Of a DNA stretch of 64,000 nt, positions 3,509-64,000 are shown one piece after another. Numbering within the stretch: position 1 is the stretch's first letter; each line of letters starts with the position of its first letter. The notes below the pieces were generated by a model that saw nothing but the letters and a program-made list of their open reading frames with translations, was not told the origin of the DNA and searched no databases. A program made the position numbers and the translations under genes. Origin of the DNA: Chrysomallon squamiferum. Its lineage: Eukaryota > Animalia > Mollusca. The stretch covers positions 22,878,001 to 22,942,000 of the forward strand of contig CM022670.1 in NCBI GenBank assembly GCA_012295275.1. Direction: 5' to 3'.

Positions 3509-6500
3509 GTCTCTCAAGTTTTGTAATTTGTTAATTACAGATACAGTAACAGTAAATCAGTGTCGCCTACTGGAGTCCCTCTGATTGAGGACAAACCATC
3601 AATCAAATACTCTCTGCAGAAAACATTTACCAGTGGCATCATGTTTGTGGAGATTGGCTTCCGCGAGGAGTATTTCTGTATAAAGATGTTTGTTCTCACC
3701 TGTTCTCAGATTGGAATAACTGTCAACCAGCAGGTAACACTCTTTGACTTAGTAAAATAAATATTTTTATTTTTTATGCAAAAGATATGAATATTAAATA
3801 TTATATTACTATTTGTTATATTAAAGAATAGATACAACTCTTTTATTAAGTAATAAATTTAAAAACAAAACCAAAAAAACAATGTAAAAATTTTATTTTG
3901 AAAATCATTAGAAAATTACAGCGATTTCACATATTTTATATACTGTTTCACATAAGTAGCAATTTAAAAAATTTCAGAAGATGATAACAAAATTTAAAAA
4001 TTTAGATTAATAATGATGATTTTTTCTGGCCAGATGAACCTGCTGTTTGTGGACGAGTGTGAGAAATGCAAGGACCTCATCCACGTGCATTCGTTTGCTC
4101 ACGACTTTCACCTGCGCCTCATTCAGATGTACCTGCAGGGCCAGCACTGTGTTCTTAGTCCATGTTTTCACCTCACCCACTTTCTACAGGACTTCGCCCG
4201 AGTCTACCCCTACCCACCTGCCTACTCGAGGAACTGGCTACAGCAAGGTGACATCTATACATTTTTTTAAATATGTCTTGGTGGGGTTTTTTTGTTTTGA
4301 TTTTTGGGGGCTTTTTTGGAGGAGAATAGTACAAAATCTTATTAGTTATCCTCCAAATTTCATTTTTTTTTTTAAATATTACCTTCATGTTATAATGAAG
4401 TGAATTTTGTAACACAATGTGGGATTTTTTGTGTTTCTAGTTTTTTATTTTTTTTAGTATATATATAAATGTAAGGAAATTTTATAAGTTATTTAATGTT
4501 AATGTAAAGACATTTGCTTCAGTTAATTTATTTAGAGGATCTTTTCATGTGTAACGTTTATTTTAAAAGTTCAATAGTGTTTTATCCAAAACATTGCCAC
4601 CTTTATTAAAATTAATTTATTTTGAAGAAATGTCTTCATTCAGACAATTTTCATACTCATATAAATATATAAATTAGATCTGCAGCCTGTATATCAAATT
4701 TGCATAAACATTACATTCCAGAACACTCAATTTACTTTAATATCTCAAACATATCTTCTGTATAGCCTTAGCTAAACCTCCAAAAGAAATTCTGGTTTTT
4801 TTTTTTTTAAATAATAAAATAAGGAAAAAGGAAAGATATGAATATTTTACTTATTCTTAACAGATCATTGTTAAATAATTACTAAAATTTTTCTTGATAA
4901 AAACTAAAATAACCTCTGTATATTTTTACTAAGTATTTTGCAGCTTGAATTACAAATTATTATTTTCCACATGTTCTTGTTTCTTGTATATCAATACTCA
5001 GAACAAGAAATGCAGCTATATTTAAGCGTACAGTTAACTGTATTTTGAATTAAAGTTTTACTTGTGATTTCAGAAAGTATAACTGTTCCAGACCTGCCTT
5101 GTCCCAGTAATCAGCTGTATGACTACATGTTGAAACAGATGAAGCAGAGACACATGCGAGTCATAAGAATGGTGGCCTCTGTAGACGCAGACCTAGAGCC
5201 TGTAGGTTTTTCAAATAGTGTAGATAAAATTATAAACAGACCTAGAGCCTGTAGGTTTTTCATGTAAACTAGATAAAATTATAGACAGATCTAGAGCCTG
5301 TAGGTTTTTCTTGTTGTGTAGATAAAATTGTAGACAGACCTAGAGCCTGTAGGTTTTTCATGTAATGTAGATAAAATTATAGACAGATCTAGAGCCTGTA
5401 GGTTTTTCATGTAAACTAGATAAAATTATAGACAGATCTAGAGCCTGTAGGTTTTTCTTTGTGTGTAGATAAAATTATAGACAGACCTAGAGCCTGTAGG
5501 TTTTTCATGTAATGTAGATAAAATTATAAACAGATCTAGAGCCTGTAGGTTTTTCATGTAATGTAGATAAAATTATAGACATACCTAGAGCCTGTAGGTT
5601 TTTCAAATAGTGTAGATAAAATTATAGACAGATCTAGAGCCTGTAGGTTTTTCAAATAGTGTAGATCAAATTATAGACATACCTAGAGCCTGTAGGTTTT
5701 TCAAATAGTGTAGATCAAATTATACACAGACCTAGAGCCTGTAGGTTTTTCATGTAAACTAGATAAAATTATAGACAGATCTAGAGCCTGTAGGTGTTTA
5801 ATGTAAACTAGATAAAATTATAGACAGACCTAAAGCATGCAGGTGTTTCGTGTTGTGTAGATAAAATGATAAACAGACCTAGAGCCTGTAGGTTTTTCTT
5901 GTAATGTAGATAAAATCATACACAGACCTTGAGCCTGTAGGTGTTTCCTGTTATGTAGATAAAATTATACAGACCTAGAGCCTGTAGGTGTTTTATGTAA
6001 TGTAGATAAAATCATATAGTGTTGATATAATTATACACAGAGTCTGTATTTCATGTGGTAGAGATAAAATTATACACAAACATAGAGTTTCATGTAGTGT
6101 AGTTATTCAGCATTATAAACAAAATTCTAACCTTTCCAAACTATCTTTATTTGGTTAGGACTACATTTTTGTGAAAACTGACGAATATGCATTAGTGAGT
6201 CACAAAAAGCTGCAGAAAGAGCTCCAGCCAGAAAGGGATGCAACTCATGAAGACAAAGACGAGTATGATGTAGGTTTAGTCATTACTCACGACCTGCCTA
6301 GAAGTCTTCCCTCCAGTGAGAGTGATACCATGACACTGAGACTCAAGTACTTCATCATCCTCACTCGAAGTAGAGACTGCTTCCCCATGAAAACACTAGA
6401 GAAGAAACTCGGAGAATTCAGATCAGCACTGACCAGGACATCATCACAAGGTAGATGACAGGGAACTAAAACAGTTATATTTTTAAAATAATAATTAAAA

Positions 6501-9500
6501 ATTTGTTTCTTGTTTTCAAGAGGGGCCTAATGTTTTTATAAAATAAAAAAAATAAATGATTTTATTATTTTGCTTTTTTTTAAAAGTTTCTTTGGGCCTT
6601 AAAATTCTCAGTTAAATTGTTCTTATAATGCAGCAGAATTTAATAATTTAATTAATATATTTCTGATGTTATTTAGGTTCATCAGAAATAGCTGCTGCTG
6701 GAGATGATATTTCCAAACCAGTACCAGTGAAACAGCATCTGAGTGTGAGACAAGAAGATGTGAACTATCTAGGATTCTCCTGTGTCCACCAGGCACCAAT
6801 CTATGACATGGTACAGGAAGAGGTTCAGGCTGGAAGGTTCTTTTTTATTATTTATTTGCAGTTTGATATTTCTCAGGTGTCCAGATGTAGTATATCAATG
6901 TCTTGGTACAAGAGATATTATTTTCAAAATTAGCATATAGAATGAATATTATTTCAATGCAAATAAATAAATAAATTAAAAAAGATAATAATAATAAAAA
7001 TAAAAACAATAGTATTAATAATAAATAAATAAATAAAACGATAATAATTTAAAAAATAATAATAACAAAAAATACAAAATATAATAATAATAAATAAAAA
7101 CTGAAACATAAATATTTAATGTAATATAATCTGTTTTCAAATTAGGAAGTACTGAATTGTTTGATGCCAGTAGGTAATCTTGGGATTAACTGAGGTTTTA
7201 TTATAGAAACATTATCTCAATCCCATTTGTTAAAGATTGATTCTGAACCAATATTTCTTTCCTTAACTTCCAAAATACATTACCTCATCAGTGACAGAAA
7301 GCTATTTGATTTCTATTTCTTTATTATTATTATTTTTTAAACATTAGATCATGCTTTTAAATTACAATTTTCTATTTAGAAATATTTATTTTTATGACAT
7401 TTCAAATATAATTTAAAAATTTGACATTGGTGATGGTTACCTATTTGCTTTGATATTATTATTATTTTTTTTTTTTTTCACACAATCAATTATTAATTAG
7501 GTCTTTCATTTAATTAGTTATATTCTTCTCTGTGTTTCAGAGATAAAATTCAGCAGATGGTTCAGCTGTCGAGAGTGAAATGTTCACTTGACTACTTGTG
7601 GAAGAGAATGATGAGCAAGGATGGAGATGTTCGCAAAAAGAAACGCAGTGAGACTGAGGAGAGCAGAGACGGAGTATGTATTAATTTGCTCCACCTTCTA
7701 AAAATAAACCATTGATGATGATGATGATGATGATGATGTGATGATGGTTGGGTCTAACAAAATATTTCCATAAAGCTTTCTTAAAAACTTGTAAATTATA
7801 TTGCATGACATTTTTTTCATCTTAGGGTTGGTTTGGAAATGACTGGAAAAGATAAATATGAACAGATGATAATTTTCTGGCAACTGCTGGATTTATATCA
7901 GCCCTTCCTAAACACATGTCATGCCTATGTTGCTTAGGTTTCAGGATAATTCATTCTTTGATCTTGGGGTCAAAATTATTTCTAAAAATAATTATAAAGG
8001 ATATCTTGTTTTTAATTGTTTATGTAGGCTGCAATGTCATTTTGAATCGTGTTTGTTAATGTATTCATTCATTGTATGTATTTCTTGATATTCTGCAAAA
8101 GGAAAATAAATAAAAAAAACTTTAAAGTTTTAACATCCACTCCTGTGAACTTTTCATTACTTTAACAACATTACTTAACAATGTTTCAGAGTCTGAAGTG
8201 TCTAAGTTTCGAGGAATTTCAAGAGCTCCTGAAAATGGTGAATTTAACATCACTTGGGGATATAGACTTGGAACTTGTACCCTTTACTAATATGCCATTT
8301 AAATGGTACTGTAGCTTTCATGATGTACTGATGAGCCGTTATCCAGACACTCACAGATGTTTTAGCAGTACAGACAGTCAGCAGAAATACATTGTAAGTT
8401 ACAGTCAGCAGTTATACATTGTAAGTTACAGTCAGCAGTAATACATTGTAAGTTACAGTCAGCAGAAATACATTGTAAGTTACAGTCTGCAGAAATACAT
8501 TGTGAGTTACAGTCAGCAGTAATACATTGTAAGTTACAGTCAACAGAAATACATTGTAAGTTACAGTCAGCAGAGATACATTGTGAGTTACAGTCAGCAG
8601 AAATACACTGTAAGTTATAGTCATCAGAAATATACCGTATGTTATCATTAGCAGAAATACACTGTAAGTTACAGTCAGCAGAAATACACTGTAAGTTACA
8701 GTCAGCAGAAATACACTGTAAGTTACAGTCAGCAGAGATACATTGTGAGTTACAGTCAGCAGTAATACATTGTGAGTTACAGTCAGCAGTAATACATTGT
8801 GAGTTACAGTCTGCAGAAATACATTGTAAGTTACAGTCAGCAGAAATACACTGTAAGTTACAGTCATATGTACACTGTAAGTTACAGTCAGCAAAATACA
8901 TTGTAAGTTACAGTCAGCAGAAATACATTGTAAGTTACAGTCAGCAGTAATACATTGTAAGTTACAGTCAGCAGAGATACATTGTGAGTTACAGTCAGCA
9001 GTAATACATTGTGAGTTACAGTCAGCAGTAATACATTGTGAGTTACAGTCTGCAGAAATACATTGTTAGTTACAGTCAGCAGAAATACACTGTAAGTTAC
9101 AGTCAGCAGAAATACATTGTAAGTTACAGTCAGCAGAAATACACTGTAAGTTACAGTCTGCAGAAATACACTGTAAGTTACAGTCAGCAGAAATACACTG
9201 TAAGTTATCATTAGCAGAAATACATTGTAAGTCATAGTCATCAGAAATATACCGTATGTTATCATTAGCAGAAATACACTGTAAGTTACAGTCAGCAGAA
9301 ATACATTGTAAGTTACAGTCAGCAGAAATACACTGTAAGTTATAGTCATCAGAAATATACCGTCATTAACACTGTAAGTTACAGTCAGCAGAAATACACT
9401 GTAAGTTACAGTCAGCAGAAATAACTGTAAATAGTCATCATAAATATAAAGTCAGCATTAGCAGAAATACACTGTAAGTTACAGTCAGCAGAAATACACT

Positions 9501-11376
9501 GTAAGTTACAGTCAGCAGAAATACACTGTAAGTTACAGTCAGCAGAGATACATTGTGAGTTACAGTCAGCAGTAATACATTGTGAGTTACAGTCAGCAGT
9601 AATACATTGTGAGTTACAGTCTGCAGAAATACATTGTAAGTTACAGTCAGCAGAAATACACTGTAAGTTACAGTCAGCAGAGATACATTGTGAGTTACAG
9701 TCAGCAGTAATACATTGTGAGTTACAGTCAGCAGTAATACATTGTGAGTTACAGTCTGCAGAAATACACTGTAAGTTACAGTCAGCAGAAATACACTGTA
9801 AGTTACAGTCAGCAGAAATACACTGTAAGTTACAGTCAGCAGAAATACATTGTAAGTTACAGTCAGCAGAAATACACTGTAAGTTACAGTCAGCAGAAAT
9901 ACACTGTAAGTTATAGTCATCAGAAATATACCGTACAGAAATACACTGTAAGTTACAGTCAGCAGAAATACACTGTAAGTTATAGTCATCAGAAATATAC
10001 ATGTTATCATTAGCAGAAATACACTGTAAGTTACAGTCAGCAGAAATACACTGTAAGTTACAGTCAGCAGAAATACACTCTAAGTTACAGTCAGCAGAAA
10101 TACACTGTAAGTTATAGTCATCAGAAATATACCGTATGTTATCATTAGCAGAAATACACTGTAAGTTACAGTCAGCAGAAATACACTGTAAGTTACAGTC
10201 AGCAGAAATACACTGTAAGTTACAGTCAGCAGAAATACACTGTAAGTTATAGTCATCAGAAATATACCGTATGTTATCATTAGCAGAAATACACTGTAAG
10301 TTACAGTCAGCAGAAATACACTGTAAGTTACAGTCAGCAGAAATACACTGTAAGTTATAGTCATCAGAAATACACTGTAAGTTACAGTCAGCAGAAATAC
10401 ACTGTAAGTTACAGTCAGCAGAAATATACTGTATGTTATCATTAGCAGAAATACACTGTAAGTTACAGTCAACAGAAATACACTGTAAGTTACAGTCAGC
10501 AGAAATACACTGTAAGTTACAGTCAGCAGAAATACACTGTAAGTTACAGTCAGCAGAGATATACCGTATGTTATCATTAGCAGAAATACTGTTAGCACTT
10601 AATATCATGTAAATATATTGTACATCATAAGATACTTACCGTGCATTGTCAGATATTTGTTATAAATAATTCATGTAATTAATTTCAGCTTGTGCTAAAT
10701 CCTAACTATCTGGATATGTTCATGATGATGTCACTAGATTTCCGATTAGAGAAAGCTGTGAGTACTTAGTTTTAATGTTTTCATCACTAAACTGGAATCC
10801 CTGCAAAACACACATCTAGCCATAATTCAGAAAATAAAATTTATACTTGAAAATTGTAAAATCTCCTGTTTTCGATATGTTTAGAAACTTTTTAGTTAAT
10901 AAATAAACATTTTTTTACATTCAGATGCTTTATAGCTTTAAAATAACCAAACATTTTTTATATTTAATACCTTTTTATTTATTTTTTTATTTTAAGTCAT
11001 GTCAGTGGAAGAAAAATAATATTAAAATATGGCATAAATAAAATAAAATTTTTAAATATAAAAGATGTAATTAAACTTTTTTTGCTTGTTTCTGACTATT
11101 CAAAGAAATCATGTATATAGAGATTATGTATATTTTTTTTATTAAATTTAAAAATATATTTTTTTATTAAAAGGCAGGAATGAATATTCAGTATGACTTT
11201 CTTAAAGCTTTAAAAATAAATTAAATTAAATTACTATATATTTTTATTTTAACATTGATTTCTTTATCCAATAATGTTTTTTCACCTAGTATTTATTCAT
11301 CTTCTTATATTTTAATTTATTTATTTTAATTTATTTATATATATATATATATATTTATTTATTTATTTATTTCTTT

Positions 11377-11407
<31 letters not shown>

Positions 11408-11615
11408 TTTTTATTTTTATTTATTTTATTTTTTTGGTGATTTCTTAAAATGTTGTATTGTGTTATTTCAGGAGCTGAGTATGGTTTTACGCGAACCTCT
11501 GCTGAATCAGGAACACACTCCACAGAATCCAAATCTTCCAGTTCTGAGCATGCAGAATCACATTGAGAGTTTTGTCAATGCCTGCGTGTTCCACACCTGG
11601 TCATCCATGTTGTAA
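1..11615 (+). CDS. SZT2: SZT2 (KICSTOR complex scaffold), 3' portion; spliced CDS join(<1..28,465..535,848..1024,2989..3224,3541..3733,4034..4247,5074..5201,6159..6450,6677..6836,7541..7673,8190..8393,10689..10757,11472..11615)
   Basis: All 13 exons have GT..AG boundaries, and intron phases (1,0,0,2,0,1,0,1,2,0,0,0) join into one open frame ending at TAA 11613-11615. Motifs recalled from the SZT2 C-terminal region are present: [36 protein letters not shown], and the terminal FVNACVFHTWSSML. Confidence 0.9.
465..535 (+). CDS. SZT2: SZT2 exon (DTERLFRLQQLYFAWLRKNNSPVS)
   Basis: Acceptor ttacag at 463-464, donor TCT|GTAAGT, phase 1 to 0. Confidence 0.85.
848..1024 (+). CDS. SZT2: SZT2 exon ([23 protein letters not shown]...ESSKS)
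   Basis: Acceptor tttttacag, donor TCT|GTACGT, 59 codons, GC content raised relative to flanks. Confidence 0.9.
1195..1500. repeat. old diverged ~130-bp tandem duplication in an SZT2 intron
   Basis: ttttacaaa...tgttt(a/g)atattaaaact recurs at ~1215 and ~1352, with a third partial copy at ~1477. Confidence 0.6.
2183..2227 (+). CDS. SZT2: candidate symmetric 45-nt cassette exon of SZT2 (WSPKLTIPVIHSLSE)
   Basis: Acceptor tgtttcag, donor GAA|GTGAGT, 15 codons, no stop, phase 0-0 inside a phase-0 intron. Confidence 0.55.
2693..2769. repeat. (ATG)14-(ATC)n compound microsatellite forming a perfect 56-bp palindrome (2708-2763)
   Basis: Read directly; the centre GATC is at 2734-2737. Confidence 0.95.
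2989..3224 (+). CDS. SZT2: SZT2 exon (RSRHSSGASVAS...EGSRK)
   Basis: Acceptor tatttcag, donor AG|GTAGAT, phase 0 to 2. Confidence 0.9.
3437..3504. repeat. (CT)n microsatellite upstream of an SZT2 acceptor
   Basis: Read directly. Confidence 0.95.
3541..3733 (+). CDS. SZT2: SZT2 exon (YSNSKSVSPT...GITVNQQ)
   Basis: Acceptor ttacag, donor CAG|GTAACA, phase 2 to 0. Confidence 0.9.
4034..4247 (+). CDS. SZT2: SZT2 exon ([28 protein letters not shown]...NWLQQ)
   Basis: Acceptor ctggccag, donor G|GTGACA, contains the HVHSF.DFHLR motif. Confidence 0.92.
5074..5201 (+). CDS. SZT2: SZT2 exon (ESITVPDLP...VDADLEP)
   Basis: Acceptor atttcag, donor CCT|GTAGGT (the first donor of the 49-bp array), phase 1 to 0. 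Confidence 0.88.
5181..6015 (+). repeat. 49-bp minisatellite, ~17 copies, each containing the SZT2 exon end and donor (agacctagagcct|gtaggt)
   Basis: CTAG anchors at 5193, 5242, 5291, 5340 ... 5975 show a 49-bp period. Degenerate copies trail to ~6100. Confidence 0.95.
6159..6450 (+). CDS. SZT2: SZT2 exon (DYIFVKTDEYALV...RTSSQ)
   Basis: Acceptor ttggttag, donor AAG|GTAGAT, phase 0 to 1. Confidence 0.9.
6677..6836 (+). CDS. SZT2: SZT2 exon (GSSEIAAAG...EEVQAG)
   Basis: Acceptor atttag. The weak donor AAG|GTTCTT gives the phase 2 the next exon requires. Confidence 0.8.
7541..7673 (+). CDS. SZT2: SZT2 exon (DKIQQMVQLSRVKCSLDYLWKRM...SRDG)
   Basis: Strong polypyrimidine tract with tttcag acceptor, donor GGA|GTATGT. 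Confidence 0.88.
8190..8393 (+). CDS. SZT2: SZT2 exon (SLKCLSFEEFQELL...DSQQKYI)
   Basis: Acceptor gtttcag, donor ATT|GTAAGT (the first donor of the 27-bp array), 68 codons. Confidence 0.88.
8374..10597 (+). repeat. 27-bp minisatellite, ~80 copies (acagtcagcagaaatacaYt|gtaagtt), each containing the SZT2 exon end and donor
   Basis: The unit is visible directly, and a 9-aa periodicity appears in all translated frames (ISADCNLQC, VSYSQQKYT). Confidence 0.97.
10689..10757 (+). CDS. SZT2: SZT2 exon (LVLNPNYLDMFMMMSLDFRLEKA)
   Basis: Acceptor atttcag, donor GCT|GTGAGT, 23 codons. Confidence 0.88.
11472..11615 (+). CDS. SZT2: SZT2 terminal coding exon (ELSMVLREP...FVNACVFHTWSSML*)
   Basis: Acceptor atttcag, stop TAA. 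The C-terminus resembles the recalled vertebrate SZT2 ending (FVN..CF.LW..LL). Confidence 0.9.
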   Translation, partial: ELSMVLREPLLNQEHTPQNPNLPVLSMQNHIESFVNACVFHTWSSML

Positions 11616-22400: not shown

Positions 22401-25400
22401 TCTTTTTCCATCCATTCTACGTAACATTTTAAAACTGTTTTGATGTTTAACTGAAATAATGACTTAGTAATAAACAGGATTCAAACTATTTATTACTAAA
22501 GAAGAAATTATTTTAATGATCATTTCTGTATTATATTCTTGATCATTACAGAATACAAGTTTTAAAAAACAGCTATTAATAAACAATGTAACTTGCATTT
22601 AATATTACTGTGGTTTTATACTGCTTGTATTCATAAAATATACAGTTTCAAACCAGAGATCAACAATGGTAATTATCTGATTAGTATAATGTGAAACTGT
22701 TTTTGTTTATTTAGTATTGTAATTGAAGATTATTTGTCTAATTTACAGTATAATGTCCGCATTTATACACCATTTTGTACTACCGAACAAAAAAAAAATA
22801 TATATTTATTTTTAATTTTAAAATATTGAAGTTTCTAAGTTTACAGAAATAATTTTATAATTTTGACTAAAACTCACCTCAGTTCATCCTCTCTTTCTCT
22901 CATCTCTCTCAGTTCTCTCTCAATTTTGGACTCGGCTGTTTGGTGCGACTCTCTGTAAGAAAACGTCGTACTGCCAGACCCAGCAATAACACTCCGCCTT
23001 GCTGGGGCTACCAGATCTGGGGTGTGCGTCCCAGCTGTCTGACTTGCATTGGAACTCGTGTCTGAAGCTGCCTCTCGTCTTCTGTTCTGTCAGAAGAGCT
23101 TGCAGTGGCACTTCGTCTCGTTACAAAGTTTCTCTTAACACTGCCACTGGTTTTGTTCTCTCCAATAACAGAAACGTACTTTAAAGGTTCGATGTGCTCT
23201 TCCGAGGTGGTAATAATTTTACCTTCCTTTCTCAAGTCCAGCTCTCTCTGCTTTTGCGCAATGATTTCATGTTGGAGCCTGCTGGAAGCAAAGCGACGCA
23301 TGGCACTCGGTGCAGCAACATTGTGTCTTGGAAAAGTCTGGACTGTGCCTGTGCTTGGTGATTCAGGCTCCTTGGGAGGTGATTTTGGCAGTGGCAGTTC
23401 AGGTAGGCCCTTTGATCTCCTAAATTCATTCTCACGCTCTCTTGCCAAACGAATTTCACGTTCAATTGGTGTTTCTTCTGATATCTCAATATTGAAGCTG
23501 TTTGGAGGTGATTCTGACTTCATTCCACTGTCAGACTCAGATTTTAAGGTGCTGTGACTAGAGTCCAATGAATGTTCTGACTCACGTCGATTCTTGTGCT
23601 GAACAAATGGTGAGACATCTCTCTGCCATGTTCCTGTTTTAACAGAAGGAACTGGAATGTGTTTCTTTTCAGTTTCTGGCTTTGGAACATCAGCTTCTTT
23701 CTTTGGAGCTACTGAACTCTGGCTTGCTGAAGCTGGAGTTACTGCATTTCCTTTACTCAACATTTGCCTTTGTCTTTGAAGTTCTTCTTCTCTTTCACGT
23801 AATTCTCTCAGTTCTTTAGCAATACGACTTTCACCTTCATGCTGATATCCTTGTATTGCTGATTCATAAGAAATATCTTTTGATTCATTGTGATTTATGT
23901 CATTCTGCACCTCACCATCAGCTTCATCGAAAACTTCCTCCTTTTCTTTGGGAGCATCTTTGGAATTATTTGCTGATATTTTAAGTTGTCTTATTCTTGC
24001 TATTTCTTCTTCTCTCTCCCTCTGAAGTCTGATTTCCTTTTCTATAATACTTTCACGTGGGTTTTCTGGTTCTTCTATAGAATTCTGCTGAATACAAGAC
24101 AAAAGATTAGTATATATAGTAATCATAACAACACTAACAAACTGAAAACAAATACAGATCATTCATAACTGCCAAATACAGTTAAATCATGGTTACAACA
24201 AGATACTACTTAGTTTTAACACATTACCTTTCAATAAATATTTCTGTAGATGCTTTAATTCATAATAACGTTAGATAAAACACTGCATTTAGAAAAAGAA
24301 AGCATCTTTCTTCTCGTTTAAACTGATAATGGCTGAAAGGAAAGACAAGTTATATCTCTAACTATTAAGCTGTGTCACAGACTGCTAAAACTCTGTCAAC
24401 AGCAATCAATGAATATTTACCAAACAAAAATAATGATCTGTATGAACCCCTGTGTCTTTTTCCCTGCTGCAATTTAACACAATCCTCATTTAACAATGAA
24501 GAGGAGAAACAATTTGTTGAGCTGAGTAATGTCTTTGTATCCAGCCAGGAGGTGCAAACATTAAATTACAGGTGATTCTTTTGTTTTACAAACTAGAATT
24601 TATCACTTTTGCTAGTCTTTCTTTACTGAAGCGTAAAATAAAAATCCACTATAATAGTAATACTGAAATTAGGCTTTTAAATGTATTGTGTATTAATAAA
24701 ATAGCACATATGTTGCTATTTAGAAAACTAAATGAATACATGAAATATTAAACCATTTTTCTGAAGCTTCTAATTTTTTGCTTGTAAATAATCAGTGTTG
24801 AATTTGACAACAGAAAACAAATGATTATATATATATTATAACAGAAGTACAATAACAGTCTATTCCTATATCATTGTCCTTAAACAATTAAAACCTTTAG
24901 CTAAGCACTCCTAACATTTAGGATTATCTATGAATTTAGAGTTTTCTAACCTGACAAACATTTAGGATTATCTGCCTATGAATTTAGTGTTTTCTAACCT
25001 GACAGACAACATTTAGGATTATCTGTCTATGAATTTAGTGTTTTCTAACCTGACAAACAACATTTAGGATTATCTGTCTATGAATTTAGTATTTTCTAAC
25101 CTTACAACAACATTTATCAATGTTACCATTTTAAACCTTTATAAACATATACAATAATAAAATAAAACTATTTAATAAATAAATATAAAATAATGAAAAT
25201 GTTATTACCTCTTCAGCAACTTCTTCTACAACTTCTCTGCTGACAGCTCGTTCTCTTTCTTCTTGTTCTCTCAGCTCTTCCTGAATCATAGACTCTCTCT
25301 TCCGCAGCTCAGAGCCCCTGTCTGCCTCTGTCATTTCATGGTAATTTGGCTTAAAGTTTTCGTCATCCTCATTTGACTGAAATATTCCTATGTCCACTTT

Positions 25401-42500: not shown

Positions 42501-45308
42501 TTTTTCGTCTTCTTTCTTGCTCTGGGGAGGACGAGGGGCTGCAGTTTTCTTTGTGCTCTTTGATTTCACTGGTTGTTGTACTGGTTGTTGTACTTCAGAA
42601 ATAACTGTTGTTTGTTTATCTACTTTTAATTCAGTGCTTTCATCTGGAACATTCAATTTAGGTTCAGGCATTATCACTGTTCCTTTATTTTCTTGAGTCT
42701 GAAATTGTGCTTGGCTTGCCTTAAAAAAGGACAGTTCTGTTTGCCTGAGATTATCTCTGGATTCCTGTGTACTTGGAAAAATAATGGGATGCTTTATAAC
42801 AACAGTTTCTTCAATTACTGTCACAACTTCGTCAGCACTACTGAAGTCTGACTCAATAACATGTTTCTGTTTCAAAAGCTTTGTTTCTTTGCTTTTTCTT
42901 TTAACCAGTTCTATTTTAACATCCTTTGGTTGTTTTACTATCTTGACTGGAGAAATGTCTTCTGTGGGAGATATATTTGTTGTTGGGATTTCTTCTAACT
43001 GTTTATCACTTTGCTGATAGGATTTAACTCTGTCAGTAGAACTTTCAGTTTTCTCTGATGGTTTACTTTCTTTGACTAATAGCTGTATTTCACCTTTATT
43101 GTTGTTAATGGGTTTTTCAGAGTTTGGTGAATTTTTAAAATCCGAATCACTTTTCTGGACCAAAGACTGTTGTTCTGACTCTGAAGAAACAGTCTCAGTA
43201 TTTACACAAGTCTGTTCTTTAAAACTGTCAGTGTCATTAAACAATGGCGATGCTCTCAGAGCTGCAAACACTTCAGACTCTAGCGAGGAAGAAAGAATCC
43301 CCGAATCCTTGCTACTGTTTTTGGAATCAGATGTTTCAACAAAGTTAGTGGGGTTATCTTTTTCTAAGCTTCTTTTTCTTTCTAATGATGCCCTTCTGGT
43401 TGATGAGGTGGGTTTAGAATTGGTAGAACTAGCTTTTAAACTGACTGGAGATACTGGGCTTACAGGACTGCTAACACTGTCTCTTGGAGAAGTCTTTTCC
43501 GAAGATTCTCTGCGTTTTTTCAGCCTTGGAGGTGGCTTAGGTAGATCCTTGCTTGCTTGATTAGGTTCAGTTTTCAAACTGATTTCAACACTGTTCTGAC
43601 CAACTTTCACATTTTTAACTGCAGTAGTTGACTGATCTGGTGTGAATTCAGAATGCAACTGTTCATTATGTAATTTTGGAGAGACAGGTGGAGGACTGTT
43701 ACTTGAAATAGATTTATTTGACACTTGTTCAGAAGATAATTCTTCATCAGATAATACCGCTTTAGGAGATACTGGAGGGGCAGGTGCTCTGGTCTTTTTC
43801 AGGGACGCGTAACGAGGTGATGTACATTCAGGTGATGATGCAGCAGGTTCTGATGACTTCTGATTATTTAATAATATTTCTGATAATGACTCCGATAATG
43901 ACTCTGATAATGATGATGTTTTTGTTGATTGTCCTTTCAAAGATTTTCCCTCAGATGTTTTCTTTTCTGCAAGTGGTGATCTTTTGTAAACTTTATCAGA
44001 AGTTTTTTCTGAAGAAGTTCTCAAAAACCTACTTGGTCTTTCAGGAGGACTGAGTTTCTCTGGTGAAGATTCTTGTTTTGTGACTGATTTGTGATCAGCT
44101 TTTGAACTTGATTTGTGATCAGATTTTGTATCTGATTTATGATCAGCTTTTATATCTGTTTGATGATCAGATTTTGAACTTGACTTATGTTCAGATTTTG
44201 AACTTGATTTATGATCAGTTTTTGTGTCTGACTTGAGTTCAGATTTTGAACTTGACTTGTGATCAGTTTTTGTATCTGACTTGAGTTCAGATTTTGAACT
44301 TGACTTGTGATCAGTTTTTGTGTCTGTCTTGAGTTCAGATTTTGGACTTGAGCCGTGTTCTAAATGAAGTGACCTCCTGTTCTGTCTGTACTCTCTGGCA
44401 GCTCGCGTGGCCTCGTCGTCTGTTTTGATGTGGTAGCTGCGGCGTTTCACACCTTCGCTCAACTCAGCCTTTCGACGACTGTGTCGAACCCGTTCTGTTC
44501 TCAACTCTTCCTCCTTACTTCGTTTCCTCGCTGAGTAGTCCTCAGGGTTTTTCTGGAAAGAAAACATGGACATCAGAATAATATACTTTAAAATATACAG
44601 TGGTTTATCTTCAAAAAAAAAGGAATAGATGATTTCTCATATTTAATGTAGGCAGGGTTTGCTCATTATTTCAAGCAAATGAAGAATGTTTTTGGTCATT
44701 ATCATTGGGATTTTTTTTTGTTAACAGTTCATGAAACAATCTGATAAAATCCTTTCTAATTGCATTGATTTGTATATTTATATATTTCATATAAATTAAT
44801 TATTATTACTGTACAATTAAAAAAATACAAAAAAAAAGCCACAATAGAATGGCAATGGCTTTCAATACCCAGTATTTTCATTATGGGATTTGGTAAATTT
44901 TGCACAAATCAAACAGTTTTGGCTGTATTAAATTCAGTAGCACGTCAGATTACTGTTGTGTAATCTACTAACTATGCCCAGGTAACAAAGTGAAGCCCAC
45001 CTAATGCTGATGACAATCATTCTGCCTCCAAGACATATTCTAAGTAACAAGATATCAAGGCCAGCTCTTAGCAAAGATCTTTTCAAGCAGAATAGATAAG
45101 ATTATGTAGCTTGCCGAATTGAAAGGATCAGTTTAGCACAACAAGCCTATTTAAGCATTATGAGATTCTGTGTTCAAATTCGTTTAACCAGACATTTCAA
45201 TACCACATCCATGGTTCTTCACCAGACATTAAGTACTGAGTTTATAAAACAACAAGAAAAAGAAACAAACAAACAACAACAATAAAATAATAATAATAAT
45301 AATAATAA

Positions 45309-56700: not shown

Positions 56701-59034
56701 ACAATTCACATCTAAACACTGAATGTACGCTGAAACTGGAGCATGCTCCCAGCATTCTGTTACAGCAGATGATGTGCAAGGCATTTCAATGCATAAAAGC
56801 AGAAGCTTAGTGTAACATATTATTATTACAGGCATTATTGTTATTATTACTTTCTGAAACACAGAACATTAGAATTTTAAAAGTAGTATATGAAGTTGAA
56901 GTATAAATTTAATCATTAACCAACATCTGAAATGAATAAACAATCCTATGCCTGTGTTATATTATTAGTACATTTGAAGGTTTAATTAATTATTTTTTAA
57001 TCCAGACAAATGCTTAAGCACATTGATTAGATTTCTGGTTTTTATGACTATGCAAAACGTATTTTGTGTCCAGCAACATCTATAACTGAAACTGATAAAC
57101 TACAATCAACATACCTGAAACTTTCCTATTTTCACATGTTTTTATGACAATCTTGGCATCCAGTACTGAATAACTAAGATCCAGTGCATGGTAACACTGC
57201 GTGTCGACTAACTCGTGAATTTCAAACTAAGTTGTTCATGTCCACACACCATTGTTTCAGATGAAAGGTCTAAAACTTTGGCAAACATAAATGAGAAAAA
57301 AGCAAAAATGCGTCCCGATTGCCAACTCAAACACACGAGACTCGGCACCTAGCATGGACGAATGTCTTGTGCCAGCTGCAGAATCAATGGATACACATTG
57401 ATCATGTCATAAAGAGCCCGAAACATCTGCTGCAGACCGAATGCCAACATTATGTTTACATGCAAATTGTTTTATGATTGTTACATTGATGAATGTTCGC
57501 TTTTCTTTGCATTTTCAATTTCATGCAGGATACAGCTTGTTATTATGTTTGAGAAAAGCATGTCAATAATTATTATAATATTTGGAATTTTTTCGTTCTT
57601 TGAAGAAAAAGGTTCATGAAATATCTTCAAGTTTTGCAATAATTAAATTGTTACATCATTTGTTTAAACAGAGCATGTGAGATAAATATAAGAATTAGTC
57701 ATCTGATTTTCAAATTTACTATGTTTAATTAACATCTTTTACTTATAATGAAAAAATTTAAATAGTAAAACTGTAAGAAAATATGAAATATAGTTATTAT
57801 TCTTTATTCTTTGTTTAATAACAGTATGATAGTTTTGCTGTTAAACACAAAAATAACTGTAACACAGGATGAATCAACAGTATTTTGCTCAGTCTTTTCA
57901 GTGTATTATAACTGCACAGTAACATTTGATGTAATATCTGTGTGTATGCAATATTAAAACCATCATTTAGTTAAAATTCACTTAAATTCCAAAATGTATC
58001 TTTCTACCAAACAAATAAAATGATCAACAATTATTTACAAAAAAACATCTAAACCCTGCACCTCAGAAATTTTCTTATTTAGGTCAAAGAAGAAAGTTTT
58101 AAAACAAATTACTAATATTACACATCATGAAAGAGAAAGTTGATTAAAGCACTAAAACATGATAAACCACAAATGTTTAATGACAAACCCTGCACAAAAC
58201 AAAAATATCAGCTATTTCCATGGTGATGATAAACCAGAAATTATAACCATAGAATAGATATTTAATAATACCTCAGCACCAATTTACAACAGCTATTAGA
58301 TGTCATCAGCAAATGAACAATTAATTTTGAGTATACATTTAAACACAGTGTAAATGAGGAAAATACAACAAAGACAATAATAACAATAATTATTATTTTT
58401 TAAATATACAGTAAACTAAAGGTTAACAATAGAGAGAATGTATTATACTGACAGTATTTTTATTTCTTATTATTAGGATTGTTACTTTTTTCTTCTTTAA
58501 AAAAAAAAGAAAAAAGTAGAGAATAGATTAAATAATTATTTAAATATAATATTAATTACAACTGATAAATAAGTTATTTTAATGTTTATTCAAAAATACT
58601 GTGTAAAGAAAAAATAACTATATTTCAAAGATTATAATTAATACAATAATCTGTGACAAAAGATATGCAACAAATGTTTTGACAATTGAAATATTCCTGT
58701 TACATATTTGCCTATCAAATAAATACATGTACTAATTACATGTATTTTTTTAGCTTTCGTCTGATATAATAAGTTACCTTCTGTTTCATTTTGAAAACAG
58801 TTTACCTGTCTGTCCAGAGCCAGTCACAGCTACAGTGCTCATAGGGCAACAGGTTGTCAGGAAAAAGCACAAAAAGCTGATGGCAAATGCTTGCCCCACA
58901 CTGAGAAACGATCTGACATGTCAGTGGCCATAAACATGACTGCCAAGACTTCAAATGGTGCTTACATGAGCAGCATTGACACAGAGATGAAGGATGCCCA
59001 TTAATCAACTTCAGTGGTTGTGAGGAACTCAGTC

Positions 59035-59040
59035 TTTATT
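59035..59040 (-). terminator. candidate polyadenylation signal AATAAA of the unidentified gene
   Basis: First minus-strand AATAAA, ~190 nt after the predicted stop at 59226. Confidence 0.35.
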
Positions 59041-59225
59041 CAACAAGAACATTGCGTAAGCAGAAACCTTCCACAATTCAAAATCACCTCAAACCGTGAT
59101 GTTGAATAACATCTTTCATAACATTTCATCTACTGTACACTTCATGAATATTTTTTCTTTGATATTATTTCAGCAGTTATATTTACAACGTATCATCATT
59201 AAGACAACATCCAGTCTAACTATCG

Positions 59226-62060
59226 TCATTTTACATACAACTGTAAAAAGCTTTCTTTTGGTTTTTTCCTTTTCATATATGTAAATAAAATGAAGTTGGG
59301 ACTGAAGAGGTTATTAAAACTTCACAGATTATAGAATATTCTATTTTTCTACTTTGTTGCTATCCAAAATACAAAACAAATACTGCCATACTTACAAAAA
59401 CTAGCCTGTCTCCTTCCATGTTCAGTTTTGTCATTTCATTTTTGAGGTCTATCAGTTTTCTCTCCAAGTCTGAAAAACTGTTGTCCTCAGAATGACCAGA
59501 CCAGCTTAAACACAACAATGGGTCCTCTTCTACTGGCCTGACTGATGGAAATAACAATACAAACAAATTTCAGAGTTGTTTTGTATACGTATTTGATAAA
59601 AAAGAAAAAAAACACACCACTTTTTTCCTACAAGTAATACAAATAAAGTGAAGGTTATGTGTATTCTGCAAATTAGGTTATTTATTAACATGCAAAAACA
59701 GTTATAGTATATAAAAAAAAAAGAAAAAAAGGAAAATAAGATAAAAATAAAATGAACATAAATAATGTATTTGTGAAAATGTGAAAAATTAAAAAGAAAA
59801 ATTAAAAAATGTTTGAAACAGATGTTGATTAATTAACTGAATAATTTTTAGTGACTAGGCTCATACATTTTAAAATAAATTTCTGTTGATAATTTCAAAA
59901 AATCTTAATAAAACCCTGTGTTTAATCAGTTGAGTACAGATATATGGAGAGACTGAAAACCAGACAAGAATGATCACTGCTTGGAGAAGGTCCTAATAAC
60001 AACGATTGCTTTCTGAGAGTTGAAAATTACTTTCTTTTTTAACCATTGGTAAAAGGGAACATGACTCTGCAATATACACAGACCTGGAGCAGTTGTGAAT
60101 ATCGGGTCTTCTTCTTCAGACATTGCACTAGAAGTTGCCTTGGATTTACAGAAAGACTCAATAAATGTATCACCGAAATCTTTCACTGAGACTATTACTG
60201 CATCAGGGATAGTAGCAGTCTTTCCATGGTTTCTCTCAAAGAGATCACACTCTGGAAATAAAACACAGCCGGAGGTTTCTCGGATCAAGAGAGCAGACTG
60301 GTCAAAAGGGTTGAATATAAACGGAATAAAAATGTCTGATGAAACTAGATCTTCCAGCAGTTTGGCATTTTCTGAAAAAACATAAAATAATTTTTTTAAA
60401 ACATGTCTCAGACCTAATTTCTGTTGTCTTGGTGCAATCAGATTACTAAAATACTTCTGTAAATTATAAACAGTGTGATATTTCTGACAGTTATTATGTA
60501 TAACCAATGTATATATATATATTTTTTTTTTATTGTGTTTGGATTGCAGCTTGATTATATAAATACCTTTTTTTATAACAGATACTTCAAAGAGAACAGT
60601 TTTGAAAGTGTTTGATGCCAAAAACATATATCTCTTGAGCATTTGACATATGCTCTCTGAAGAACTATTACTAGAACACAACTATTTGAACTACCTATAC
60701 ATGTTTTTATGTGCAATAAACCATTGTCACATAATATAACAAAAAGTTTCATTTTCACTTTGGGTTGATTCACTTGCAAACACTTTCATGTTAACATGTT
60801 TTTACAACTACAACAGCAATGTCAGGAACTGAAGTAACTGGCTGCATGTAACTTTGAGGAATGAAATTCAAAAATTTAAATTCAAGTACTTTTTACAGCT
60901 TTAATCAAATAGGAATCCCTGCGTGGGCAAACTGAAATAATTATTTTACAACGGGAATCAATCTGTATCCCATCTGTTGGTTCAAGCATGTTTATCATGG
61001 ACATGACTGTTAATAATGCATGACTGAAGGAAATGTGGAAATGGTAACCTTGTTACACTTTAAACTAACAAATAATCTTAAAAAGACAAAAAATAAATTA
61101 AAATCTAAAGGACAGTATATTATATTCTATTTTAAGGCAGCAAATGCAGTGTACTTTTTCTATTTAAAATTCTGTTGAAGATTATAAATATAAAATTTTG
61201 CTAACTAAATAAAAGGTGACAGTTCAGTCATAATGTCATAAATAAAAAAATATAATGAAAATCAATGATTTAAAATAAAATTGTAAAACTAATAAATAAA
61301 TAAATAAATAATAATACCAACAAATATGTATTTTATCTTAAGAAACATGTTTCTGCTCTCTGAAATTAATTAACTTTATTTTTGTTTGTTTGATTACGAA
61401 AATTACAAAAATAACACAGTCTATGAAGTATATTTGCATTCACCGGCAAGACTTTCATCTTTAAGTTTTAGTCATCTTAAGATTGTATATAACATTAAAA
61501 ATGTTATTAATATAAATTTTTCTGTCAACAGTTATACATTTAATATTAGAAATAAAATTTAATAATGAATATTGTAATTCAAAAACACATGCTTATAAAA
61601 GAACTGAATTCATTTTCTTGATTTTTCTACATAACAGTAGTCTATTTTAAACATATAAATTCTCAGAAATGGCAACATCAATAATAATAAAGAAAGAAAG
61701 AAAAAGCCTGTTTTAATATACAAGATTGTCAGTTAAAATGTCAGTTCATAACTGTTTTAATAATTTAACAGAAACAGAAATAACTTACATCTAAAAGTGA
61801 AACACTGATATAAAATTAAGTGTAATTTCCACTATGAAACAGAAACTTTGCAACATATACAAGTTTTACAGAACATTAACTGTATTTAAAATGTTTAAGG
61901 ATCGGAAAAATGGGTTAAAACTATCATAAATATAAGTATAAGATTAAACCATAAACAAATCATACACACATCTACAAGTGTAAAATTCAGCAAATAGATT
62001 TTGCTCCTTTATTCTATATTAAAAAAAAAATAATAATAATTATAAAAATAAAAACGAAAA

Positions 62061-62097
<37 letters not shown>

Positions 62098-63814
62098 TAA
62101 AAAAAAAATAAAAAAAAAAAATAAATAAATAAATAAATACATAAATATAGCAAAAAACACACAAAAACAACACTAACCTTTCCTTTGCTCATAAAGTTGA
62201 TGAAATGGATCAGGCTCTTTTGTTGCTTTGGTGTGAATTGCCCTTAACCTCTGAGTAAACGAAGTAATGAAAGAAAGTTTAGAACAGTAAATAACAAAAT
62301 ATACCCAGCATTACCACAGAGAAAAAGTAGTGTTTAATAAATTATAGTATAAAAACTGGAATTAAAACCTTCGTAAAAAGACCATTTTATTAGAATTTAG
62401 ATACTGTCATAAGTGAAAGAAATACAAATTTTTAAATAACAAATTTTAATAAATACATTTTCTTACATAATTTTATAAATAATAAAAGTAATTTTTTTTA
62501 TAACTATTTTACACACACATATTCAATTATATTAAAAAAAAGCAACTTTCAAATTAACAATTTTATAAAAATGAATGCATCTAAACTTATTTTAAAAGAC
62601 ATCCTCAAACTTTATAATTTGAAATAATTAAATTTACAAACTTTTATACTAAATTATTGATATATAAAAAAATAAGGAGAAAAAAAAATGAGAAATAAAT
62701 TATAAAACAATTGAATATATGTATAAAACATTTTTTACCTTGTTCAGTTTATCTGTTTCCTTCTTTATAAACCGAATATCATCGCTCAACTTCTGTTCTT
62801 CCAAAATAGTCTTCACAGTTTCCTGTCGCACTTTTTCATGTTCCTTCTGTAACCTGATGTAATTACTTAGAAAGGTTATTTAACTATCATAACAGATCAC
62901 TAACAAAAAAATAACTATTTTTTTATTCAGATGACAGACAAAATGCAGTTCTGCCATTATAAACAAGCTTTAAAATGTTTAATACAAGTTTTTATAATAA
63001 AAAAATAAAGATAAACAAATTAACCCTAAAGAAAGTTTGAAGTAGATAAATATATTAACATAAGCGCTGATAAAATGAAGATAATTTTTTTTTTCAATGA
63101 CATAAAAAATACAGTTCTGCCATTTTAAGCAAGCTTAAAAATGCCTAATACAAGTTTTTATAAGAAATATAAAAAAAAATTAATGATAAACAAATTAACC
63201 CTGAAGTTTGAAGTAGATAAATATATTAACATAATTGTAATCAATAAATACCATAAATCAAAGAAAGTAATCAAGTGACAGCCAAACTGCACTAGAACTT
63301 ATTGATCTGATCATTAACTTTCCTCATTTTTGTTGTGTTTATAGATTCCAGGATATTTACATGAAGAAATTCTTACCAGTTAGTGTCAAATGTTCTTTGA
63401 CCTTTTGTTGTAAAATAGCAACCATTATAGTTTATAACAATACTTGATAAAACAATTTTCTGTAACCTTGAGTGTTTATAACAAAAATTCCTATATCATG
63501 TCTTAAGTAGTAATTAAAATCATCAGTTTATGAAGCACTGGTTTACAGTATTGCATTGTTTGAATTGATATGCTAAGTCTATGCTATATAAATATTAAAC
63601 CATTAAACAATTACATGCACAACACAGAAAATCTTTTAAAGCAAAGAGGAAAACACTGTCTTACCTGTATGCTATTTCTTCCTGTTTTTCTATTTCAGAT
63701 TTTTCTTCAATGAGCCTAACTTGAAATTCTTCAGGTGATAGAGATGGGTTGACAGCTTTTTATACTGAAAGAGTAATTTTCATTGATAATGAAGATGTAC
63801 TATGACAAATATAT
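59226..63814 (-). CDS. 3' part of an unidentified gene with a coiled-coil region and a globular C-terminal part; exons ~63764/63814..63665, 62853..62739, 62250..62178, 60371..~60044, 59537..59396, 59240..59226
   Basis: AG/GT-bounded exons join in phase: ...EEIAYR|LQKEHEKVRQ...KLNK|RLRAIHTK...EQRK|ENAKLLEDLV...FYQW|PVEEDPLLCLSW...RLVF|LYVK*. The donor at 60044 and the 5'-most exon boundary are uncertain. Confidence 0.7.
59396..59537 (-). CDS. exon of unidentified gene (PVEEDPLLCLSWSGHS...EGDRLVF)
   Basis: Acceptor tccatcagtcag, donor TTT|GTAAGT. Confidence 0.75.
60044..60371 (-). CDS. exon of unidentified gene (ENAKLLEDLVSSDIFIPFIFNPFD...VPFYQW)
   Basis: Acceptor tttttcag in phase 1, long open frame. 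The 3' boundary is uncertain (TG|GTTAAA at 60044 or CA|GTGATC near 59978). Confidence 0.75.
62178..62250 (-). CDS. exon of unidentified coiled-coil gene (RLRAIHTKATKEPDPFHQLYEQRK)
   Basis: Acceptor ttactcag, donor AAG|GTTAGT, phase 0 to 1. Confidence 0.78.
62739..62853 (-). CDS. exon of unidentified coiled-coil gene (LQKEHEKVRQETVKTILEEQKLSDDIRFIKKETDKLNK)
   Basis: Acceptor catcag, donor AAG|GTAAAA, phase 2 to 0, heptad-like charged sequence. Confidence 0.8.
62931..63233. repeat. two-copy ~167-bp intronic tandem duplication
   Basis: 62931-63063 aligns with 63097-63233 (cagttctgccatt...aatacaagtttttataa...gtttgaagtagataaatatattaacataa). Confidence 0.9.
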
Positions 63815-64000
63815 CTGAAAGGTTAAAAAAATAATTATATGTTAAATTTAATCTCTTCACCTGATTGTAGTCTGTTTTTGTTTTTATTACATTTTTTTTT
63901 TACTGTTACTGAATTTTCTAAAGTTTTTAATAACAGAATGTTGGGAATTTAATATAATTTTATCTTTGATACTACTTTATTTCATATTTTATTATCAAAA

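What the first reader, a model, noticed from the sequence alone, without database searches (positions are those of the whole stretch)
5181..10597. Two independent 'splice-donor minisatellites' in one gene
Seen: two tandem arrays of unrelated sequence and period (49 bp and 27 bp) both begin inside an SZT2 exon. In both, the unit spans the exon/intron junction, so the real donor is followed by ~16 and ~80 intact copies of itself with exonic context. Each array fills most of its intron. Inference: two junction-anchored arrays within 3 kb suggest a mechanism, such as a mutational bias at 5' splice sites (R-loop or hairpin-triggered slippage) or selection for donor arrays acting as U1 snRNP platforms or decoys. 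Established: U1 binding at cryptic donors suppresses premature polyadenylation and promotes nuclear retention.
Basis: partly seen in the sequence, partly recalled or inferred. Interest (0 to 1): 0.8.

Follow-up and report, generated by a model that had tools for sequence, protein, structure and literature searches.

The report
Two repeated splice donors in SZT2
In an animal (likely mollusc) SZT2 gene, the ends of two exons, splice signal included, are repeated 17 and 82 times into the next introns, yet the assembled RNA uses only the first signal each time, so these are likely harmless repeats of a kind already known from human and lancelet genes.

Summary
A 49-bp array (5188-6016, 17 copies) and an unrelated 27-bp array (8374-10589, 82 units) begin 14 and 20 bases inside SZT2 exons and fill 85% and 96% of their introns. 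Spliced RNA contigs from two runs of one study use the first donor at both sites; four DNA runs of three studies hold the 27-bp array. The exon parts encode conserved SZT2 residues, so the arrays grew from the junctions. This is the known class of boundary-spanning minisatellites (human F7, CBS, 6-16, LMNB2, PDGF; lancelet 'mirages'); two in one gene is described for lancelet PGBD5. The scan has noted it in at least nine other genomes. The proposed mechanisms got no support: no excess hairpin, no extra conservation of donor letters, no link to poly(A) signals. No genome was held, so genome-wide enrichment is untested. One unselected hint remains: of two other-species SZT2 loci, one has its own 101-bp donor-spanning repeat (1 of 10 donors). 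Verdict: new member of a known kind, likely neutral.

The parts
5074..5201 (+). SZT2 coding exon; its last 14 bases begin array 1
   Evidence: RNA contigs of X8 and X9 carry this exon end directly before 6159
5188..6016 (+). Array 1: 17 copies of a 49-bp unit (14 exon + 35 intron bases); 16 of 17 keep CCT|GTAGGT
5202..5207 (+). Used splice donor 1 (first copy), phase 0
6017..6110 (+). Two decayed units at the far end of array 1 (62-66% to consensus, donor lost)
6159..6450 (+). SZT2 exon after the array-1 intron
6677..6836 (+). SZT2 exon; its donor has no array (control; next intron has 11 AATAAA)
7541..7673 (+). SZT2 exon; its donor has no array (control)
8190..8393 (+). SZT2 coding exon; its last 20 bases begin array 2
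8374..10589 (+). Array 2: 82 units of 27 bp (20 exon + 7 intron bases), 70 GTRAGT sites, recurring multi-unit blocks; copy 2 would add 9 codons in frame, copy 3 holds an in-frame TAA
8394..8399 (+). Used splice donor 2 (first copy), phase 0
10689..10757 (+). SZT2 exon after the array-2 intron
   Evidence: its first 30 bases are the loose end behind 8393 in both RNA runs
11472..11612 (+). Last coding exon of SZT2, ending at TAA
   Evidence: aligns with the C-termini of P0004, P0007, P0009

Best explanation
Each array is a run of copies of its own exon end and splice donor that likely arose by a local duplication across the junction and likely grew by ordinary minisatellite turnover; the assembled RNA uses only the first donor, so the protein is unchanged and the arrays are likely tolerated passengers. 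Shown: arrays, junctions, first-donor use in contigs, coding origin of the exon parts, multi-unit blocks and decayed far ends. Inferred: birth by slippage or unequal exchange, growth by unequal crossover or conversion, the 5'-most donor winning as in human F7, and removal of mis-spliced RNA by nonsense-mediated decay (every tested later donor except copy 2 of array 2 brings a stop). Two in one gene is then a coincidence in a repeat-rich genome, noticed because the window was selected.
For: First-copy donors in 2 of 2 RNA runs at both sites, with no RNA record running past 8420 (7 and 2 records laid). Exon parts align with orthologues: VDADLEP with VDPEIEN, VDTDIDS, VDPDIDS; DSQQKYI with DGLVQYI, DGQTQYI. 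Same intron positions, 655 and about 390 bp long, without arrays in L002. Recurring four-unit blocks and decayed 3' ends. No excess conservation of donor letters, no excess folding. Use of array-1 copies 2-6 or array-2 copies 3-8 meets a stop. Precedent: F7 minigenes show the most upstream of identical donors is chosen (PMC1557585, abstract, introduction passages and Discussion read); lancelet mirages do not disturb splicing (PMC3087553, PMC3902484 passages).
Against: Two of three non-coding minisatellites in the window sit on donors (P about 2e-4 to 8e-4 before selection). An unselected locus of another species has a third donor-spanning repeat in the same gene (1 of 10 donors; P about 0.01-0.10 under assumed array densities). 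In array 1 the exon part plus donor carries 5 derived alleles over 20 columns against 18 over 29 intron columns, mostly in one 8-base patch. The RNA evidence is contigs from one study, which drop rare isoforms; in human 6-16 and CBS the next copies are used. The F7 result is from mammalian cells.
Confidence: 0.72

Rival explanations
1. Arrays are born or kept more often at exon-intron junctions than elsewhere, by a mutational bias tied to transcription or splicing, or because a coding first copy cannot decay and keeps seeding the array. They would still be functionless, but the pattern would be non-random.
For: 2 of 9 SZT2 donors tested in the window; a third case at a neighbouring SZT2 donor in L001, found by protein likeness alone; published cases in human and lancelet genes; array starts are crisp at the exon and decayed at the far end.
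Against: No hairpin excess at any of the three units; units are AT-rich with little G skew, unlike typical R-loop sequence (own knowledge); 0 of 8 donors in L002 and 0 of 10 acceptors in the window; the window's third minisatellite starts 92 bp inside its intron; selection of the window; an unchecked scan note (e1-7908399) reports no excess over random placement in another invertebrate genome.
Confidence: 0.2
2. The arrays are kept by selection as U1 snRNP platforms or decoys that guard against early polyadenylation or hold the pre-mRNA in the nucleus.
For: 70 GTRAGT sites in one intron. U1 and 5' splice-site motifs are linked to nuclear retention and telescripting in print (search listing and abstract starts only: PMC9074902, PMC4380460, PMC13322065). 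Array 2 is present in four DNA runs of three studies.
Against: Donor letters are not more conserved than their neighbours; the sites match the U1 consensus at only 5-6 of 9 positions and are predicted to be mostly paired (median unpaired 0.16 against 0.35-0.65 for 7 control donors); array introns hold no AATAAA or ATTAAA while array-free introns hold up to 11 AATAAA; both sit in the last six introns of a long gene; absent in L002.
Confidence: 0.04
3. Array 2 supplies a minor in-frame isoform: donor copy 2 adds nine residues (VSYSQQLYI) to SZT2, and copies from 3 on feed decay.
For: 27-bp unit, phase 0, copy 2 open; second and third copies are used in human 6-16 and CBS.
Against: No such contig among 9 RNA records laid; the insertion would fall in a conserved, gap-poor stretch.
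Confidence: 0.03
4. The arrays are assembly artefacts, or an inserted mobile or satellite repeat that overlaps the exon by chance.
For: No read spanning either whole array was seen, so copy numbers are unverified.
Against: Units differ in patterned ways; four DNA runs show flank contigs stopping at 8403 and collapsed unit contigs at 17-32 times flank depth; the exon parts encode conserved SZT2 residues; units occur nowhere else in the window.
Confidence: 0.01

Closest known systems
Human F7 intron 7 37-bp VNTR (Borensztajn et al. 2006, PMC1557585; abstract, introduction passages, Discussion read)
   Same: First unit spans a real donor; identical donors follow; only the most upstream is used.
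   Different: F7 has 5-9 copies and 4 exon bases per unit; here 17 and 82 copies with 14 and 20 exon bases, two arrays in one gene, invertebrate; no minigene test here.
Human 6-16 intron 2, CBS intron 13, LMNB2 and PDGF intron 4 minisatellites (as summarised in PMC1557585; original papers not seen)
   Same: Donor-spanning units; the LMNB2 repeat covers most of its intron (title in the reference list); only the real donor used in LMNB2 and PDGF.
   Different: 6-16 and CBS also use the next two copies; no such use seen here, but only contigs were available.
Lancelet 'mirage' minisatellites: Adh3, globins BflGb6/BflGb9, troponin C, PGBD5 (PMC3087553 and PMC3902484, passages; the Adh3 paper itself was not held)
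   Same: Tandem copies of exon-intron boundaries, both 5' and 3', with normal splicing, length variation and concerted turnover; PGBD5 has two (60 and 108 bp) in one gene.
   Different: Described in lancelets, not in molluscs in the papers I found; here both are donor-side and array 2 is longer in copy number than the cases quoted.
Internal tandem repeats at exon-intron boundaries in human segmental duplications (De Grassi and Ciccarelli 2009, PMC2812944, passages)
   Same: Variable tandem repeats at exon-intron boundaries.
   Different: There they form new introns or alternative splicing in young paralogues; here the intron positions are old (shared with L002) and the mRNA is unchanged.

Membership tests
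Boundary-spanning minisatellite (F7-type, 'mirage') | Head-to-tail array of a minisatellite-sized unit | tested here: met
   49 bp x 17 and 27 bp x 81.6
Boundary-spanning minisatellite (F7-type, 'mirage') | First unit spans a real exon-intron boundary | tested here: met
   RNA contigs join 5201 to 6159 and 8393 to 10689; frame and orthologue alignment
Boundary-spanning minisatellite (F7-type, 'mirage') | Splice site repeated in most copies | tested here: met
   16 of 17 units; 70 GTRAGT in 82 units
Boundary-spanning minisatellite (F7-type, 'mirage') | Normal mRNA is made from the authentic site | tested here: met
   2 of 2 RNA runs, one study, contigs only; rare use of later copies cannot be excluded
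Boundary-spanning minisatellite (F7-type, 'mirage') | Length polymorphism or instability | tested here: inconclusive
   One X1 contig has 28 extra repeat letters after 6011; 8 of 8 short unit variants from run contigs are absent from the window's array 2; no allele lengths measured
Boundary-spanning minisatellite (F7-type, 'mirage') | Concerted turnover with decayed array edge | tested here: met
   Recurring four-unit blocks and decayed 3' units
Selected U1 platform or decoy element | Donor motif conserved above neighbouring letters | tested here: not met
   Fisher P 0.38 and 1.0; low power, copies not independent
Selected U1 platform or decoy element | Lies where cryptic poly(A) signals need cover | tested here: not met
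   0 AATAAA/ATTAAA in both array introns; 0-11 AATAAA in the 7 others
Selected U1 platform or decoy element | Conserved at the orthologous intron | tested here: inconclusive
   Absent in one distant, bivalve-like locus; no close relative could be read at these introns
Selected U1 platform or decoy element | U1 binds the copies and loss changes RNA fate | not testable with these tools
   Needs cross-linking and minigenes
Hairpin-triggered repeat expansion | Seed unit folds better than chance and than control donors | tested here: not met
   z -1.2 to +0.9 at the real donors; first units 15-61% of shuffled-unit arrays fold as well; only the array-1 consensus as RNA reached 0.023, 1 of 8 tests
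Genome-wide bias of arrays to donors | Excess over a position-shuffled null, donors above acceptors | not testable with these tools
   No genome held

The most novel reading that the evidence does not exclude
Exon-intron junctions are hot spots for minisatellite birth or survival in molluscs: SZT2 carries three independent donor-spanning arrays at neighbouring introns in two lineages (two here, one in L001), so a measurable share of intron length would come from copied exon ends, and these arrays would be a natural genome-wide test of first-come donor choice outside mammals.
Probability: 0.2. Interest if true: 0.6.

Novelty: new member of a known kind. Interest (0 to 1): 0.22.

Why it matters
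As it stands it is a clean invertebrate example that up to about 70 near-identical donors can follow the real one without changing the main mRNA, which fits first-come donor choice. It is also a caution for annotation and read mapping. It would matter more if a genome-wide count showed arrays enriched at junctions: that would link splicing or coding constraint to where repeats are born, a question I did not find answered in the paper searches (the library lacks most subscription papers, and no supplements were read).

Tried and rejected
Whole-genome test: no genome held. Pfam named none of 10 SZT2 exons (one weak EF-hand hit, E 0.02). First metagenome scan with the array-2 exon found nothing; the second, with an alignment, gave 2 loci. 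Related organism B (runs X10, X11, one sample): four SZT2 exon pieces laid at 83-93% identity, but nothing laid on 8190-8420, neither exon nor unit, so this says nothing on whether it has the array. Repeat-only RNA contigs (X8 depth 6.3, X9 depth 2.1) and intron pieces at depth 4 in X8 may be pre-mRNA or DNA carry-over; contigs show no level. Alternative donor 1 at 5181 (TCT|GTAGAC, also phase 0), which would leave array 1 wholly intronic: rejected by the RNA loose end and the alignment. Multi-unit folding z-scores near -3 were rejected as an effect of periodicity by the shuffled-unit control. Structure hiding only the later donors: rejected, the real donors are predicted as paired as the copies (0.22 and 0.19 unpaired). 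Polarity of divergence along the arrays: no trend (rho 0.08 and 0.12), though exon-type ATT falls from 21 of 37 to 8 of 37 units in array 2. The 51-bp array as a third junction array: rejected, it starts 92 bp into its intron. The Adh3 mirage paper was not held; PMC10078293 and bioRxiv 10.64898/2026.09.22.753313 (passages) had nothing on junction-spanning units. Paper searches returned nothing. Scan look-ups returned nothing.

Full report
What is there. The first 11.6 kb of the window hold the 3' end of SZT2. Ten exons between 2989 and 11612 have GT/AG ends and splice into one stop-free frame of 590 codons that aligns end to end with three stored homologues at 36-47% identity. One exon matches human KICSTOR SZT2 in the PDB at E 6e-16; the two named database relatives are oyster and Dreissena SZT2-like proteins. 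I call the animal a likely mollusc on that basis; 'snail' comes only from unchecked scan notes. TRF finds a 49-bp array at 5188-6016 (17 copies) and a 27-bp array at 8374-10589 (81.6 copies). They start 14 and 20 bases before the donors at 5202 and 8394 and cover 85% and 96% of their introns. Array 1 keeps CCT|GTAGGT in 16 of 17 units. Array 2 has 70 GTRAGT and 6 GTATGT sites; 14 of its 74 full-length units carry the real donor's exact 9-mer. The units share only the letters around the donor and occur nowhere else in the window.

Which donor is used. In two RNA runs (two samples, one study) a long contig skips three introns with GT..AG ends, carries the unique exon end up to 5201 before 6159, and goes from 8393 straight into the exon at 10689. 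No RNA record ran past the end of the laid stretch at 8420, as a contig using copy 2 of array 2 would (7 and 2 records laid; 12 loose ends were not shown). These are contigs, which drop rare forms, so minor use of later copies is not excluded. If used, copy 2 of array 2 would add nine residues in frame; copies 3-8 meet a TAA in unit 3, and copies 2-6 of array 1 all meet stops.

Are the arrays real. Four DNA runs from three studies have flank contigs that stop at 8403, where the repeat begins to branch, and collapsed unit contigs at 17-32 times the flank depth (depth is not a copy number, and one run may be the source of the assembly). Two runs show the far end of array 1 looping back by one unit, and one contig joins it to unique flank with 28 extra repeat letters. 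Eight short unit variants seen in run contigs are absent from the window's array 2, which hints at variation between individuals. Full lengths were not read.

Where they came from. The exon parts of the units encode residues that align with other species (VDADLEP with VDPEIEN, VDTDIDS, VDPDIDS; DSQQKYI with DGLVQYI, DGQTQYI), so the repeats grew out of the junctions and did not invade them. Locus L002, closest to the Dreissena protein among six compared, has both introns at the same positions, 655 and about 390 bp long, with no array at any of its 8 donors. Array 2 shows recurring four-unit blocks, and both arrays decay at the far end, as expected of ordinary minisatellite turnover.

Hairpin trigger: the two donors fold no better than shuffles or than seven control donors; against arrays of shuffled units, the first units are unremarkable and 1 of 8 tests reached 0.05 (array-1 consensus as RNA, 0.023). 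The units are AT-rich with little G skew, which does not resemble R-loop-prone sequence (own knowledge). Selection for U1 sites: donor positions vary as often as other positions (P 0.38 and 1.0, low power); against this reading of neutrality, the exon-plus-donor part of array 1 does carry fewer variants (5 over 20 columns) than its intron part (18 over 29), mostly from one patch. The array introns have no AATAAA or ATTAAA, while array-free introns have up to 11 AATAAA.

Chance. The window has three non-coding minisatellites by my reading; two lie on donors and the third starts 92 bp into an intron of the next gene. With 13-25 donors assumed, P is about 2e-4 to 8e-4, or about 50-190 windows among 250,000 if all were like this. 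The pair cannot show enrichment because it was picked for the pattern. One unselected result points the other way: L001, the other locus returned by protein likeness, has a 101-bp repeat (2.4 copies to the contig end, 99% alike) whose unit starts 10 bases before the donor orthologous to window 4248. That donor is predicted from homology and phase, not from RNA. It makes 1 of 10 donors in two loci; P is about 0.01-0.10 under assumed array densities. This is a hint, not a test.

What is known. PMC1557585 (abstract, introduction passages, Discussion) describes the F7 37-bp VNTR and lists 6-16, CBS, LMNB2 and PDGF; minigenes showed later donors are functional but the most upstream is chosen. PMC3087553 and PMC3902484 (passages) describe lancelet 'mirages' on both 5' and 3' boundaries with normal splicing, and two in PGBD5. 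The finding meets five of six features of this class; length polymorphism is inconclusive. The scan has 13 donor-type notes in at least 9 genomes, including mussels, and 49 notes matching acceptor words; these are unchecked leads. I found no genome-wide donor-versus-acceptor count in print, within a library that lacks most subscription papers.

Verdict. Real, RNA-supported, and a new member of a known kind. Most likely (0.72) two tolerated local expansions that leave the mRNA unchanged because the first donor wins. A junction bias in repeat birth or survival stays open (0.2); a selected U1 platform is unlikely (0.04). Interest 0.22; 0.6 if the junction bias proved true.

Noticed in passing
L001:2277-2521: Another species' SZT2 (bivalve-like) has a 101-bp tandem repeat, 2.4 copies to the contig end, spanning the donor orthologous to window 4248.
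   Followed up: yes
window 24913-25116: 51-bp x 4 minisatellite in an intron of the minus-strand gene, starting 92 bp after the donor at 25208; each unit holds an AG|GT motif; one weak match near 48000.
   Followed up: partly
window 19351-44636 (minus): Large low-complexity gene with weak AKAP2_C matches (E 6.5e-5 and 1.7e-4, below the Pfam cut-off) and a coding 24-bp repeat at 44085-44351; PALM2-AKAP2-like by that match only.
   Followed up: partly
window about 23010-23090 (minus): The long reading frame stops at 23011 while a second frame carries on to an AKAP2_C-like stretch and a donor near 22877: a frameshift, either an assembly indel or real.
   Followed up: no
window 6460-6600 and 7350-7450: Short AT-rich intron stretches attract many unrelated contigs in all runs, including organism B: likely small dispersed repeats.
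   Followed up: no
window 4034-4247; L001:1561, L002:249: This exon is split by an extra intron in both bivalve-like loci but not in the window: an intron gain or loss.
   Followed up: no
window 7752-8403: Run X5 has a haplotype with 27 differences in 652 bases next to array 2 and still holds the array.
   Followed up: no
window 58789-63820 (minus): Several short exon-like stretches of another gene or of the 5' part of the minus-strand gene; no Pfam family above cut-off.
   Followed up: no
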